From: a virus
Lineage: Duplodnaviria > Heunggongvirae > Uroviricota > Caudoviricetes
Virus record (IMG/VR): IMGVR_UViG_2651869749_000001
Reading direction: 5' to 3' (one strand)
Length of the DNA stretch: 9,344 nucleotides
This document shows positions 1 through 9,010 of the stretch, one piece after another. Position numbers and translations under genes: made by a program. The notes beneath the pieces are model-generated. The model saw nothing but the letters and a program-made list of their open reading frames with translations, did not search any database and was not told where the DNA came from. Each line of letters opens with the position of its first letter. Position 1 is the stretch's first letter.

Positions 1-143
1 CGCAGAGTCTCCGGCGTACAGCCAATCTTTGGAGCAATGGAACAAATTGTCGCCCATTGTGAGTCATATTCGCCCTGACTTTCCAGAACCATACGGGCTG
101 CCCGTTGACGGACTTCAGGGGAAAAACGAGTATTTTTAGTCAT
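1..143 (-). CDS. IS3-family transposase OrfA, N-terminal fragment (partial, runs off window)
   Basis: Minus-strand translation from ATG 143..141: [48 protein letters not shown], recalled as the N-terminus of IS629-group OrfA. Confidence 0.8.
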
Positions 144-197
144 CCTGTTTACCTCTTTCTCAGGGAGTTTAGTCTCCAGGATTCCCGGGGCGGTTCA
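1..197 (-). mobile_element. IS3-family insertion sequence, left terminal part (IS629/IS1203/IS3411-like); continues beyond window start
   Basis: Read on the minus strand, the element starts at 197 with terminus TGAACCGCCCCGGGAATCCTGGAGACT, followed by AGAGG RBS and an ATG at 143..141. Same sequence recurs in inverted orientation at 9250..9344. Family name is from memory of IS629-type ends, not a search. Confidence 0.85.
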
Positions 198-263: not shown

Positions 264-443
264 TTAACCAAGTTCTCTGGCAATCATTGCCGTCGTTCGT
301 ATTGCCCATTTATCGACATATTTCCCATCTTCTATTACAGGAAACATTTCTTCAGGCTTAACCATGCATTCCGATTGCAGCTTGCATCCATTGCATCGCT
401 TGAATTGTCCACACCATTGATTCTTATCAATAGTCGTAGTCAT
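264..443 (-). CDS. ral: Ral restriction-alleviation protein, apparently shortened by a premature TAA (59 codons vs recalled 66)
   Basis: Minus-strand translation from ATG 443..441: MTTTIDKNQWCGQFKRCNGCKLQSECMVKPEEMFPVIEDGKYVDKWAIRTTAMIARELG then TAA (plus 266..264). The next 18 nt stay in frame (QNNKAA) to a TGA at 245..243. Confidence 0.75.
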   Translation of the reverse strand: MTTTIDKNQWCGQFKRCNGCKLQSECMVKPEEMFPVIEDGKYVDKWAIRTTAMIARELG

Positions 444-1192: not shown

Positions 1193-1516
1193 CTAGGTAA
1201 GAGGAATCGATTTTCCCTTAATTTTCTGGCGTCCACTGCATGTTATGCCGCGTTCGCCAGGCTTGCTGTACCATGTGCGCTGATTCTTGCGCTCAATACG
1301 TTGCAGGTTGCTTTCAATCTGTTCGTGGTATTCAGCCAGCACTGTAAGGTCTATCGGATTCAGTGCGCTTTCTACTCGTGATTTCGGTTTGCGATTCAGC
1401 GAGAGAATAGGGCGGTTAACTGGTTTTGCGCTTACCCCAACCAACAGGGGATTTGCTACTTTCCATTGAGCCTGTTTCTCTGCGCGACGTTCGCGGCGGC
1501 GTGTTTGTGCATCCAT
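1193..1516 (-). CDS. N: Antitermination protein N
   Basis: Minus-strand translation from ATG 1516..1514: MDAQTRRRERRAEKQAQWKVANPLLVGVSAKPVNRP... with arginine-rich N-terminal motif, recognised as lambda N. The 133-aa track ORF is an upstream in-frame extension. nutL lies upstream. Confidence 0.95.
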   Translation of the reverse strand: MDAQTRRRERRAEKQAQWKVANPLLVGVSAKPVNRPILSLNRKPKSRVESALNPIDLTVLAEYHEQIESNLQRIERKNQRTWYSKPGERGITCSGRQKIKGKSIPLT

Positions 1517-1869: not shown

Positions 1870-3225
<1,356 letters not shown>

Positions 3226-4570: not shown

Positions 4571-5268
4571 AAAACATCGCCGCACAGATGGTTAACTTTG
4601 ACCGTGAGCAGATGCGTCGGATCGCCAACAACATGCCGGAACAGTACGACGAAAAGCCGCAGGTACAGCAGGTAGCGCAGATCATCAACGGTGTGTTCAG
4701 CCAGTTACTGGCAACTTTCCCGGCGAGCCTGGCTAACCGTGACCAGAACGAAGTGAACGAAATCCGTCGCCAGTGGGTTCTGGCTTTTCGGGAAAACGGG
4801 ATCACCACGATGGAACAGGTTAACGCAGGAATGCGCGTAGCCCGTCGGCAGAATCGACCATTTCTGCCATCACCCGGGCAGTTTGTTGCATGGTGCCGGG
4901 AAGAAGCATCCGTTATCGCCGGACTGCCAAACGTCAGCGAGCTGGTTGATATGGTTTACGAGTATTGCCGGAAGCGAGGCCTGTATCCGGATGCGGAGTC
5001 TTATCCGTGGAAATCAAACGCGCACTACTGGCTGGTTACCAACCTGTATCAGAACATGCGGGCCAATGCGCTTACTGATGCGGAATTACGGCGCAAGGCT
5101 GCCGATGAACTGACCTGTATGACAGCGCGAATTAACCGTGGTGAGACGATACCTGAACCAGTAAAACAACTTCCTGTTATGGGCGGTAGACCTCTAAATC
5201 GTGCACAGGCTCTGGCGAAGATCGCAGAAATTAAAGCTAAGTTCGGACTGAAAGGAGCAAGTGTATGA
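4567..5268 (+). CDS. P: Replication protein P (DnaB helicase loader, 233 aa)
   Basis: ATG at 4567 overlaps the O stop (ATGA); translation MKNIAAQMVNFDREQMRRIANNMPEQYDEKPQ... recognised as lambda P. Confidence 0.95.
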   Translation: MKNIAAQMVNFDREQMRRIANNMPEQYDEKPQVQQVAQIINGVFSQLLATFPASLANRDQNEVNEIRRQWVLAFRENGITTMEQVNAGMRVARRQNRPFLPSPGQFVAWCREEASVIAGLPNVSELVDMVYEYCRKRGLYPDAESYPWKSNAHYWLVTNLYQNMRANALTDAELRRKAADELTCMTARINRGETIPEPVKQLPVMGGRPLNRAQALAKIAEIKAKFGLKGASV

Positions 5269-5555
5269 CGGGCAAAGAGGCAATTATTCATTACCTGGGG
5301 ACGCATAATAGCTTCTGTGCGCCGGACGTTGCCGCGCTAACAGGCGCAACAGTAACCAGCATAAATCAGGCCGCGGCTAAAATGGCACGGGCAGGTCTTC
5401 TGGTTATCGAAGGTAAGGTCTGGCGAACGGTGTATTACCGGTTTGCTACCAGGGAAGAACGGGAAGGAAAGATGAGCACGAACCTGATTTTTAAGGAGTG
5501 TCGCCAGAGTGCCGCGATGAAACGGGTATTGGCGGTATATGGAGTTAAAAGATGA
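5265..5555 (+). CDS. ren: Ren protein (96 aa)
   Basis: ATG overlaps the P stop; translation MTGKEAIIHYLGTHNSFCAPDVAALTGATVTS... recognised as lambda Ren. Confidence 0.9.
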   Translation: MTGKEAIIHYLGTHNSFCAPDVAALTGATVTSINQAAAKMARAGLLVIEGKVWRTVYYRFATREEREGKMSTNLIFKECRQSAAMKRVLAVYGVKR

Positions 5556-5582
5556 CCATCTACATTACTGAGCTAATAACAG

Positions 5583-5609
5583 GCCTGCTGGTAATCGCAG
5601 GCCTTTTTA
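5583..5609 (+). terminator. Intrinsic terminator between ren and ninB (lambda tR2 position)
   Basis: Perfect hairpin GGCCTGC-TGGTAATC-GCAGGCC (5583..5604) followed by TTTTT. Confidence 0.75.
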
Positions 5610-5628
5610 TTTGGGGGAGAGGGAAGTC

Positions 5629-6069
5629 ATGAAAAAACTAACCTTTGAAATTCGATCTCCAGCACATCAGCAAAACGCTATTCACGCAGTACAGCAAATC
5701 CTTCCAGACCCAACCAAACCAATCGTAGTAACCATTCAGGAACGCAACCGCAGCTTAGACCAAAATAGGAAGCTATGGGCCTGCTTAGGTGACGTCTCTC
5801 GTCAGGTTGAATGGCATGGTCGCTGGCTGGATGCAGAAAGCTGGAAGTGTGTGTTTACCGCAGCATTAAAGCAGCAGGATGTTGTTCCTAACCTTGCCGG
5901 GAATGGCTTTGTGGTAATAGGCCAGTCAACCAGCAGGATGCGTGTAGGCGAATTTGCGGAGCTATTAGAGCTTATACAGGCATTCGGTACAGAGCGTGGC
6001 GTTAAGTGGTCAGACGAAGCGAGACTGGCTCTGGAGTGGAAAGCGAGATGGGGAGATCGGGCTGCATGA
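5629..6069 (+). CDS. ninB: NinB (Orf family recombination mediator, 146 aa)
   Basis: ATG at 5629 preceded by GGGAAG; translation MKKLTFEIRSPAHQQNAIHAVQQILPDPTKP... recognised as lambda NinB. The track ORF from 5611 is a short upstream extension. Confidence 0.9.
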   Translation: MKKLTFEIRSPAHQQNAIHAVQQILPDPTKPIVVTIQERNRSLDQNRKLWACLGDVSRQVEWHGRWLDAESWKCVFTAALKQQDVVPNLAGNGFVVIGQSTSRMRVGEFAELLELIQAFGTERGVKWSDEARLALEWKARWGDRAA

Positions 6070-6593
6070 CTATCAAATCAAATACGCCAGCACACGACAA
6101 GGACTGCTGGCAAACGCCGCTTTGGCTTTTTGATGCACTGGATATTGAGTTTGGATTCTGGCTGGATTCGGCAGCGAGCGACAAAAATGCTCTGTGCGCT
6201 CACTGGTTAACTGAGGCCGACGACGCGCTCAATTCTGAGTGGGTAAGCCACGGTGCAATCTGGAATAACCCACCGTACAGCAATATCAGGCCGTGGGTGG
6301 AAAAAGCCGCTGAGCAGTGCATACAACAGCGACAGACGGTAGTGATGCTTGTGCCAGAGGATATGTCTGTCGGATGGTTCAGCAAGGCTCTGGAGAGTGT
6401 TGACGAAGTTCGTATTATCACTGATGGACGGATTAATTTTATCGAACCATCGACAGGGCTGGAGAAGAAGGGAAACAGCAAAGGTTCCATGCTGCTGATT
6501 TGGCGACCGTTCATCAGTCCTCGACGGATGTTTACTACCGTATCCAAAGCGGCATTGATGGCGATCGGGCAGGGCGTCAGGAGGGCGGCATGA
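6066..6593 (+). CDS. Phage DNA N6-adenine methyltransferase (Dam-like), in the ninC position
   Basis: ATG at 6066 overlaps the ninB stop (ATGA). Translation [25 protein letters not shown]...[17 protein letters not shown]... contains the NPPY catalytic motif of N6-adenine methyltransferases. No adjacent restriction endonuclease gene. Confidence 0.8.
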
Positions 6594-6766
6594 GACGACA
6601 GCGACGAAGTATCACCGACATCATCTGCGAAAACTGCAAATACCTTCCAACGAAACGCTCCAGAAATAAACGCAAGCCAATCCCAAAAGAATCTGACGTA
6701 AAAACCTTCAATTACACGGCTCACCTGTGGGATATCCGGTGGCTAAGACATCGTGCGAGGAAATGA
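6590..6766 (+). CDS. ninE: NinE-like small basic protein (58 aa)
   Basis: ATG overlaps the methyltransferase stop; translation [58 protein letters not shown]; CxxC pair; assigned to NinE from memory. Confidence 0.7.
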
Positions 6767-7122
6767 CAATGGATTATTCACAGTTAAGTGATTTTGAAAT
6801 TAACAGAATGGTAGGAGACATAATTTTTAAAGGCCTTTGGGCATGTAAACCGGAAACATCAGGGAATAACACCAACAAATGGTATTACGGAAATGCTGAT
6901 ACAACTTTTGAGCCATTAAACCCTTTGCCTGACTACTGCAATGATCCTAGCGCCTCATGGCCGATTATTGAGAAGTACAGGATTAGCATCATCAATCTCG
7001 ATGAAGACGAGTGGGGTGCACGTGGTGTGGCCGACTGTAAATCTAAGCGAGCTATACATGAAAATTCCCTCCGCGCCGCCATGATTGTCTTTCTCATGAT
7101 GCAGGACGCCAATAATGCTTAG
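6763..7122 (+). CDS. Hypothetical nin-region protein (119 aa) between ninE and ninF (P22 ninX position)
   Basis: ATG at 6763 overlaps the ninE stop (ATGA); translation [34 protein letters not shown].... Absent from lambda's nin region as I recall it. No function inferable. Confidence 0.55.
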
Positions 7123-7291
7123 CCCATCCCAATCTCTTCAATACCAGAAAGAAAGCGTCGAGCGGGCTTTAACGTGCGCTAACTGCGGTCAGAAGCTGCA
7201 TGTGCTGGAAGTTCATGTGTGTGAGCACTGCTGCGCAGAACTGATGAGCGATCCGAATAGCTCAATGTACGAGGAAGAAGACGATGAGTGA
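7115..7291 (+). CDS. ninF: NinF-like small Cys-rich protein (58 aa)
   Basis: ORF below the track size cutoff, found by reading: ATG 7115, [58 protein letters not shown], stop 7289..7291. CxxC...CxxCC pattern with acidic tail; overlaps the upstream ORF by 8 nt. Confidence 0.65.
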   Translation: MLSPSQSLQYQKESVERALTCANCGQKLHVLEVHVCEHCCAELMSDPNSSMYEEEDDE

Positions 7292-7553
7292 TTTCTCTGA
7301 GCTTATTTCCTTCAAAAAAGACAGAGAAGAAATGCGGACTGAATCTGTCTATTACGTTCAACACCGGAATAAACGCTCGGTGCTTGATCAGGAGCTGGTT
7401 ATTACCGGAGACCTGGCATTCAGAACATATAAGGCCAGCATGGAAATGAAGGATTTCCCTAAATGTGGTTCTGAAAGAGAAGCCGCGTTAAAGCTGGCAG
7501 AGTGGATGCAGAGAATGGCTGCTGCAATTGAGAATTACTGGAGCGAACCATAA
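7284..7553 (+). CDS. Hypothetical protein (89 aa) between ninF and ninG
   Basis: ATG at 7284 overlaps the ninF 3' end; stop TAA overlaps the ninG ATG (TAATG). Translation [44 protein letters not shown].... No recognisable motif. Confidence 0.5.
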
Positions 7554-8367: not shown

Positions 8368-9010
8368 TGGCAGCAAATACCGAAATATTTGGGTAGTTGG
8401 CGATCTGCACGGATGCTACACGAACCTGATGAACAAACTGGATACGATTGGATTCGACAACAAAAAAGACCTGCTTATCTCGGTGGGCGATTTGGTTGAT
8501 CGTGGTGCAGAGAACGTAGAATGCCTGGAATTAATCACATTCCCCTGGTTCAGAGCTGTACGTGGAAACCATGAGCAAATGATGATTGATGGCTTATCAG
8601 AGCGTGGAAACGTTAATCACTGGCTGCTTAATGGCGGTGGATGGTTCTTTAATCTCGATTACGACAAAGAAATTCTGGCTAAAGCTCTTGCCCATAAAGC
8701 AGATGAACTTCCGTTAATCATCGAACTGGTGAGCAAAGATAAAAAATATGTCATCTGCCACGCCGATTATCCTTGTGACGAATACGAGTTTGGAAAACCA
8801 GTTGATCATCAGCAGGTAATCTGGAACCGCGAACGAATCAGCAACTCACAAGACGGGATCGTGAAAGAAATCAAAGGTGCGGACACGTTCATCTTTGGTC
8901 ATACGCCAGCAGTGAAACCACTCAAGTTTGCCAACCAGATGTATATCGATACCGGCGCAGTGTTCTGCGGAAACCTCACATTGATTCAGGTACAGGGAGA
9001 AGGCGCATGA
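8345..9010 (+). CDS. ninI: NinI serine/threonine protein phosphatase (221 aa)
   Basis: ATG at 8345 ([25 protein letters not shown]...); metallophosphatase motifs GDLHG, GDLVDRG, GNHE. The track ORF from 8270 is an upstream extension overlapping ninH. Confidence 0.9.

What the first reader, a model, noticed from the sequence alone, without database searches (positions are those of the whole stretch)
6066..6593. Orphan N6-adenine methyltransferase in the ninC slot
A 175-aa protein with the NPPY catalytic motif is start-stop coupled between ninB and ninE, and no restriction endonuclease gene is nearby. Phage-borne orphan adenine methyltransferases can protect progeny DNA from host restriction or alter host methylation. 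Its target specificity is unknown, and it would be expressed from pR after N antitermination or tR2 read-through.
Basis: partly seen in the sequence, partly recalled or inferred. Interest (0 to 1): 0.45.

Follow-up and report, generated by a model that had tools for sequence, protein, structure and literature searches.

The report
Known lambdoid-phage GATC adenine methyltransferase
The gene is real and intact, but it is ordinary: its protein is identical to the Dam-like DNA adenine methyltransferase of Shiga-toxin phage VT2-Sakai, which the literature reports to methylate GATC, and it occurs in about 29% of complete E. coli genomes.

Summary
Window 6066..6593 (+) encodes a 175-aa protein with NPPY at residues 68-71. 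It shares ATGA stop/start overlaps with ninB upstream and ninE downstream. No restriction endonuclease gene lies in the 9.3-kb window.

The protein matches Pfam PF05869 'Dam' (E 6e-65) and NCBIfam TIGR01712 'phage N-6-adenine-methyltransferase' (equivalog, E 1e-79). It is 175/175 identical to the dam product of phage VT2-Sakai (BAA94133.1), known as M.EcoVT2Dam. That enzyme was cloned in 2001, and two later papers report that it methylates GATC.

The gene replaces lambda ninC and ninD, with breaks at the gene boundaries. It lies downstream of a lambda-type tR2 terminator, so pR-driven, N-dependent delayed-early expression is plausible.

The same gene is found at 95% nucleotide identity or more in 1566 of 5426 complete E. 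coli genomes, and relatives occur in about 1900 phage records. An AlphaFold model shows a minimal N6-adenine methyltransferase core with no separate DNA-recognition domain. It is unrelated in sequence family to host Dam.

Verdict: already known, low interest. In passing, the segment is bracketed by inverted IS3-family ends, and one of them truncates Q.

The parts
6066..6593 (+). dam-like gene. It encodes a 175-aa phage N6-adenine DNA methyltransferase identical to M.EcoVT2Dam. NPPY is at aa 68-71 (nt 6267-6278).
   Evidence: Searches give the ORF and motif. Searches give the family matches: PF05869, TIGR01712, phrog_111 and PADLOC 'orphan methyltransferase'. Searches show 175/175 identity to VT2-Sakai dam BAA94133.1.
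5629..6069 (+). ninB (orf), a recombination mediator. Its TGA stop overlaps the dam ATG as ATGA.
   Evidence: PF05772, E 2e-54. (99.4% nt identity to lambda through the ninB stop). (junction sequence).
6590..6766 (+). ninE. Its ATG overlaps the dam TGA as ATGA.
   Evidence: PF05322, E 7e-44. (junction). (lambda homology resumes at 6597).
5581..5612 (+). tR2-type intrinsic terminator between ren and ninB. It has an 8-bp stem with 6 G-C pairs, followed by UUUUUAUUU.
   Evidence: terminator scan. (-16.1 kcal/mol, z -3.4, 0 of 200 shuffles fold as well). (it lies within the stretch 99.4% identical to lambda ren-ninB).
2954..2982 (+). pR-like promoter (TTGACA, 17 nt, GAAAAT) upstream of the 434-type cro. 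It is the inferred source of the transcript that reaches dam.
   Evidence: best promoter match in the window, 10 of 12. (the cro ORF begins at 3010). That it functions as the promoter is inferred.
1193..1516 (-). N antiterminator gene. N is needed to read through tR1 and tR2 into the nin region.
   Evidence: PF11438 N36, E 2e-25. (a 107-aa N is annotated in the related prophage).
2271..2903 (-). 434-type cI repressor (HTH plus S24 peptidase). It keeps pR, and therefore dam, off in a lysogen.
   Evidence: PF00717 and PF01381. Recognition of the sequence as 434-type cI rests on my own knowledge.

Best explanation
The gene encodes a small, stand-alone, S-adenosylmethionine-dependent DNA methyltransferase of the phage 'Dam-like' family (PF05869 / TIGR01712). 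It puts a methyl group on N6 of the adenine in GATC, which is the same site the host Dam enzyme marks. It belongs to a different sequence family from host Dam.

Shown here:
- The family assignment.
- An intact catalytic NPPY loop.
- 100% amino-acid identity to M.EcoVT2Dam.
- The absence of a partner endonuclease in the window.
- The position of the gene in the nin operon behind a tR2-type terminator.

Taken from the literature:
- GATC specificity of the identical VT2-Sakai enzyme.
- Induction-linked expression of the same-sized dam gene of phage Phi24B.
- Under-methylation of lambda and P22 virion DNA by host Dam.

Inferred:
- The gene is transcribed from pR as a delayed-early gene once N antiterminates at tR1 and tR2.
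- It is translated by coupling to ninB.
- It tops up GATC methylation on rapidly replicating phage DNA that the host Dam cannot keep pace with.
- That would keep phage DNA fully methylated, so it would escape MutH nicking and SeqA binding at hemimethylated sites.
- It would also protect phage DNA from enzymes that cut unmethylated GATC in hosts with little or no Dam.

The AlphaFold model suggests a pared-down Rossmann core whose motif order is TP, then LDxAA, then NPPY, with no separate target-recognition domain.
For: Family and identity:
- PF05869 E 6.4e-65 over 166 of 169 profile positions.
- TIGR01712 equivalog E 9.7e-80.
- phrog_111 'DNA methyltransferase' E 8.6e-88.
- PADLOC best match 'orphan methyltransferase'.
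- 175/175 identity to VT2-Sakai dam, with 8 nucleotide differences that are all synonymous.
- The VT2-Sakai record annotates that gene as dam, similar to 933W L0094, HP1 Orf13 and T1 M.T1, in the same ninB-dam-ninE arrangement.

Specificity and expression from the literature:
- GATC specificity of M.EcoVT2Dam is stated in PMC6602927 and PMC7139368.
- The Phi24B dam CDS (528 bp) changes expression significantly on prophage induction (PMC3342100).
- Lambda and P22 virion DNA is under-methylated by host Dam (PMC8022706).

Conservation and structure:
- N68, P69, P70, Y71, D34, T17 and P18 are invariant in 42 homologues down to 59% identity.
- AlphaFold model: pLDDT 78.8, pTM 0.81.

Transcription context:
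- Terminator at 5581-5612.
Against: - The primary paper on M.EcoVT2Dam (PMID 11720311) could not be read here, so GATC specificity rests on two secondary citations.
- No methylation data exist for this locus.
- The biological role (topping up methylation, or protection from restriction) is inferred. I found no test of it for this family in the papers I could read.
- This copy sits in a prophage whose Q gene is cut by an IS element, so the lytic-cycle role may no longer be exercised in this host.
- GATC is not clearly depleted or enriched in the window: 28 sites against 36-46 expected. That gives no independent support.
- Residues 37-51 of the model are low confidence, so the 'missing strands' reading is tentative.
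Confidence: 0.88

Rival explanations
1. The gene is an inert passenger in a decayed prophage. The segment is bracketed by IS elements and Q is truncated, so the methyltransferase is never usefully expressed and has no current function in this genome.
For: IS3-family ends lie at 1-197 and 9251-9344 in inverted orientation, and Q is cut after codon 81. The cI repressor is intact and would keep pR off.
Against: The ORF is full length. It differs from VT2-Sakai dam by 8 synonymous and 0 non-synonymous changes. N, pR, cI, O, P and the whole nin operon are intact, so SOS induction should still transcribe it. Being inert in this host would not change what the protein is.
Confidence: 0.25
2. The enzyme has a relaxed or different specificity: non-GATC, or near non-specific adenine methylation as in some prophage methyltransferases such as M.EcoGI/GII.
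For: The protein has no recognisable target-recognition domain. Prophage orphan methyltransferases with relaxed specificity do exist (PMC6602927 Table 3; PMC7556043).
Against: An identical protein is reported to be GATC-specific. M.EcoGI/GII are listed separately from M.EcoVT2Dam in the strain that carries both.
Confidence: 0.07
3. It is the modification half of a restriction-modification system whose endonuclease lies outside the window.
For: Only 9.3 kb is visible, and IS elements could have separated partners.
Against: In VT2-Sakai, lambda-like phages and E. coli prophages the gene always sits between ninB and ninE with no endonuclease alongside. PADLOC classes it as an orphan methyltransferase. 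The mosaic joints lie exactly at its own gene boundaries.
Confidence: 0.02
4. It methylates RNA rather than DNA, because the best structural neighbour is the mRNA cap m6Am methyltransferase PCIF1.
Against: The next neighbours are all DNA N6-adenine methyltransferases at similar scores. DNA GATC methylation is reported for the identical protein. The similarity is limited to the shared catalytic core at 13-18% identity.
Confidence: 0.02

Closest known systems
M.EcoVT2Dam (dam of Stx2 phage VT2-Sakai, BAA94133.1; also 933W L0094 and Phi24B dam)
   Same: 175/175 amino acids identical. Same length, same ninB-dam-ninE position and same ATGA overlaps. Reported specificity is GATC.
   Different: Eight synonymous nucleotide differences. 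The surrounding phage is different: here a lambda/434-type immunity and replication region with a lambda-type ninB, whereas VT2-Sakai has a different ninB allele and HK022-like O and P. This copy lies in an IS-bracketed prophage without a complete Q.
Phage Dam-like family PF05869 / TIGR01712 (HP1 Orf13/Dam, T1 methyltransferase, many Drexlerviridae, Vibrio and Klebsiella phages)
   Same: Full-length profile match, invariant NPPY, and about 170-180 aa in a single domain.
   Different: Only 30-50% identity to the non-lambdoid members. Their genomic contexts differ.
Host E. coli Dam and T4 Dam (alpha-class, GATC)
   Same: Same reported target site and the same chemistry (N6-adenine, AdoMet).
Gamma-class N6-adenine methyltransferases (M.TaqI, HsdM, MmeI, CamA)
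   Different: These enzymes are 320-1500 aa and have a large target-recognition domain or subunit, whereas this protein is 175 aa and has none. There is no significant sequence match to any PDB chain.
Lambda NinC/NinD
   Same: They occupy the same slot between ninB and ninE in the nin operon.
   Different: Unrelated proteins. Lambda NinC is a 290-aa PAPS-reductase-family protein.

Membership tests
Phage N-6-adenine-methyltransferase (Pfam PF05869 Dam; NCBIfam TIGR01712 equivalog) | Full-length profile match above the curated cutoff | tested here: met
   PF05869 scores 218.4 bits against a cutoff of 28.1, covering residues 4-169 on profile positions 1-167 of 169. TIGR01712 scores 265.9 bits against a cutoff of 97.05.
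Phage N-6-adenine-methyltransferase (Pfam PF05869 Dam; NCBIfam TIGR01712 equivalog) | Catalytic (D/N)PPY motif IV is present and conserved | tested here: met
   NPPY is at residues 68-71. N68, P69, P70 and Y71 are invariant in 42 homologues.
Phage N-6-adenine-methyltransferase (Pfam PF05869 Dam; NCBIfam TIGR01712 equivalog) | Small single-domain protein (about 165-185 aa) with no target-recognition domain | tested here: met
   The protein is 175 aa. Homologues are 169-185 aa. The model shows a single domain.
Phage N-6-adenine-methyltransferase (Pfam PF05869 Dam; NCBIfam TIGR01712 equivalog) | m6A methylation of GATC | not testable with these tools
   This rests on 100% identity to M.EcoVT2Dam and on literature statements. 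The primary paper is not held.
Phage N-6-adenine-methyltransferase (Pfam PF05869 Dam; NCBIfam TIGR01712 equivalog) | Orphan: no cognate endonuclease adjacent | tested here: met
   No endonuclease-like ORF lies in the window. The same ninB-dam-ninE context is seen in phages and prophages.
Cellular Dam / T4 Dam (alpha-class, Pfam MethyltransfD12) | Sequence-family match | tested here: not met
   PF05869 is the only Pfam family at E <= 0.01. phmmer and a profile search find no PDB Dam chains.
Cellular Dam / T4 Dam (alpha-class, Pfam MethyltransfD12) | Fold with an inserted DNA-binding domain between the AdoMet and catalytic regions | tested here: not met
Gamma-class N6-adenine DNA methyltransferases (M.TaqI-like) | Catalytic core fold and motif order (X, I, IV) | tested here: inconclusive
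Gamma-class N6-adenine DNA methyltransferases (M.TaqI-like) | C-terminal target-recognition domain | tested here: not met
   The protein ends about 100 residues after NPPY, and the model has one domain.

The most novel reading that the evidence does not exclude
Two readings are not excluded.

(a) In this IS-bracketed prophage remnant that lacks a complete Q, the early operon is still SOS-inducible. The enzyme would then act as a damage-induced extra GATC methylase for the host chromosome, altering mismatch-repair strand choice or Dam-dependent gene regulation, rather than serving phage DNA.

(b) This 175-aa enzyme reads GATC without any target-recognition domain by an unusual mechanism, for example as a dimer or through the conserved basic hairpin around residues 116-147. 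No structure of this family has been solved.
Probability: 0.1. Interest if true: 0.35.

Novelty: already known. Interest (0 to 1): 0.07.

Why it matters
It matters little as a discovery. The gene, its family, its position in the nin region and its reported target site are already in the literature and in routine genome annotation.

Its residual value is as context. Stx and lambda-like prophages add extra GATC methylases to E. coli, which is relevant to interpreting methylomes. No member of this minimal methyltransferase family has a solved structure, so how it recognises GATC remains an open but specialist question.

Tried and rejected
- Sequence searches of the PDB with the single protein and with a 42-sequence profile gave only chance-level hits, E > 0.2.
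- The primary M.EcoVT2Dam paper, Murphy et al. 2008 and Cheng et al. 1995 could not be read. Specificity therefore rests on secondary citations, and I could not place lambda tR3 and tR4 relative to the replaced ninC segment.
- A full-text search for PF05869 listed seven papers whose titles and abstracts concern other systems (fungal and oomycete 6mA, chloroviruses, Salmonella phage mining, a metagenome binning tool). I did not open them. A search for phage T1 Dam also returned nothing relevant.
- GATC frequency in the window (28 observed against 36-46 expected) is uninformative.
- Membership of the host Dam family, an RNA methyltransferase role (the PCIF1 top hit) and a split restriction-modification system were each considered and rejected on the evidence given under the rival explanations.
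- The search for homologous proteins listing reached only down to about 59% identity, so the alignment used for the model is shallow in diversity.

Full report
**Observation**

It runs from ATG 6066 to TGA 6591-6593, is 528 nt long and encodes 175 aa, with NPPY at residues 68-71. The upstream gene ends with a TGA at 6067-6069 that overlaps the start codon as ATGA. The downstream gene starts at an ATG at 6590-6592 that overlaps the stop codon in the same way.

Pfam identifies the neighbours as NinB (E 2e-54) and NinE (E 7e-44). A GGAG lies 10 nt upstream of the start codon. PMC8022706 describes tight ATGA packing as typical of lambdoid nin regions.

**What it is**

- The protein matches Pfam PF05869 'DNA N-6-adenine-methyltransferase (Dam)' end to end (E 6.4e-65).
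- It matches the NCBIfam equivalog TIGR01712 'phage N-6-adenine-methyltransferase' (E 9.7e-80).
- It matches PHROG 111 'DNA methyltransferase'.
- Its best PADLOC match is 'orphan methyltransferase'.
- A tblastn search of 50,697 phage records finds relatives in 1908 of them, 201 at 99% identity or more. One of these is phage VT2-Sakai, where the match falls on the gene annotated 'dam: DNA N-6-adenine-methyltransferase'.
- Direct comparison gives 175/175 identical residues. The eight nucleotide differences are all synonymous.
- The VT2-Sakai record places dam between a NinB homologue and ninE with the same 4-nt overlaps. It notes similarity to 933W L0094, HP1 Orf13 and the T1 methyltransferase.

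**Specificity**

The VT2-Sakai enzyme, M.EcoVT2Dam, was cloned by Radlinska & Bujnicki (Acta Microbiol Pol 2001, PMID 11720311). I could not read that paper. Two later papers cite it:
- PMC6602927 states 'M.EcoVT2Dam is known to target 5'-GATC-3''.

**Context and the 'ninC slot'**

The window is a lambdoid early region:

| Gene or feature | Evidence |
|---|---|
| ral (PF11058), sieB, N | |
| 158-aa ORF of unknown function | |
| 434-type cI and cro; cII | |
| O, P, ren | |
| ninB, dam, ninE, ninX | |
| ninF, 89-aa ORF, ninH | |
| ninG, ninI phosphatase | |
| first 81 codons of a lambda-type Q | |

None of these resembles a restriction endonuclease.

Against lambda, window 5185-6069 is 99.4% identical through P, ren and ninB. 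Similarity stops exactly at the ninB stop codon and resumes at 6597 inside ninE. Lambda carries NinC (a 290-aa PAPS-reductase family protein) and NinD in that interval. The methyltransferase is thus a mosaic cassette that replaces ninC and ninD, with joints at the gene boundaries. Against VT2-Sakai, only dam plus ninE are 98.7% identical while ninB differs. dam therefore travels independently of ninB.

**Expression**

This part is partly shown and partly inferred.
- Between ren and ninB there is an intrinsic terminator at 5581-5612. It has an 8-bp stem with 6 G-C pairs, followed by UUUUUAUUU. It folds at -16.1 kcal/mol, z = -3.4, and none of 200 shuffles folds as well. It lies in the stretch that is nearly identical to lambda. 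From my own knowledge this is the position of lambda tR2.
- The best sigma-70 match in the window is at 2954-2982, just upstream of cro, where pR is expected.
- N and cI are intact.
- It follows, by inference from lambda biology, that dam is a delayed-early gene. It would be silent under cI and transcribed from pR once N antiterminates.
- In phage Phi24B, the dam CDS of the same length (528 bp) was detected in lysogen cultures, and its expression changed significantly on induction (PMC3342100). This is consistent with the inference.

**Mechanism**

In 42 homologues down to 59% identity, several residues are invariant:
- T17 and P18.
- D34 and A36.
- N68 to S72.
- A set of C-terminal residues: D99, W104, D113, E114, R116, G121, R122, K139, G140, W146 to P148.

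The AlphaFold model has mean pLDDT 78.8 and pTM 0.81, with residues 37-51 unreliable. It is a single alpha/beta domain.

The enzyme therefore appears to work like a gamma-class N6-adenine methyltransferase core: AdoMet binding, base flipping into the NPPY pocket, and methyl transfer to N6. It lacks the separate target-recognition domain of those enzymes. How it reads GATC is not established. The conserved basic hairpin in the C-terminal half is a candidate, by inference only.

**Likely role**

This is inferred. [quoted passage not shown] A phage-borne GATC methylase made during early lytic growth would complete methylation of progeny DNA. That would avoid MutH and SeqA action at hemimethylated sites. 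It would also protect against endonucleases that cut unmethylated GATC in hosts with weak or absent Dam. I found no direct test of these roles for this family in the papers I could read.

**How common it is**

The gene is found at 95% nucleotide identity or more in 1566 of 5426 complete E. coli genomes, with up to five copies per genome. It is annotated 'phage N-6-adenine-methyltransferase' between ninB and ninE. The protein clusters found contain thousands of member sequences across Enterobacterales.

**Side observations**

The window begins and ends with IS3-family element ends in inverted orientation: 1-197 on the minus strand and 9251-9344 on the plus strand. They match elements annotated as IS3 family transposase. 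The right-hand copy truncates Q after codon 81. This prophage therefore cannot activate late genes, and the methyltransferase may now be expressed only as part of an abortive SOS response.

**Verdict**

The feature is an already known, routinely annotated gene. Interest is low.

Noticed in passing
window 1-197 (- strand) and 9251-9344 (+ strand): Both ends of the window are terminal parts of IS3-family insertion sequences (TGAACCGCCCCGGGAATCCTGGAGAC...) in inverted orientation, bracketing the 9-kb early region. The two copies differ at a few bases. Whether this is a composite unit or two independent insertions cannot be told from the window.
   Followed up: partly
window 9007-9250 (+): The lambda-type Q antiterminator gene is cut after codon 81 by the right-hand IS. 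The prophage should be unable to turn on late genes, so it is a defective remnant.
   Followed up: partly
window 264-443 (-): A ral gene is present (Pfam 'Antirestriction protein Ral', E 1.7e-43). The segment therefore carries a second function related to restriction-modification besides the methyltransferase. The left IS end lies 66 nt downstream of it.
   Followed up: partly
window 1870-2346 (-): An ORF of up to 158 aa lies immediately downstream of cI, in the slot where lambda has rex. It matches phrog_2651 (unknown function) and has a hydrophobic N-terminal stretch that resembles a signal peptide ([20 protein letters not shown]). It has no Pfam or PADLOC match. It is possibly a lysogeny-expressed moron.
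   Followed up: partly
window 6769-7122 (+) and 7284-7553 (+): Relative to lambda, ninX (PF10765) and an 89-aa ORF (phrog_1258, unknown function) are extra cassettes inserted between ninE and ninF and between ninF and ninG. Their mosaic joints lie at the gene boundaries.
   Followed up: partly
window 6055-6058: A GATC site lies 8 nt upstream of the dam start codon, overlapping the GGAG ribosome-binding sequence. This is probably coincidental.
   Followed up: no
protein residues 37-51 (window 6174-6218): Only about 30 residues separate the AdoMet-loop motif (LDSAAS) from NPPY, and the model is unreliable there. The usual second and third strands of the methyltransferase fold may be missing or replaced in this family.
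   Followed up: partly
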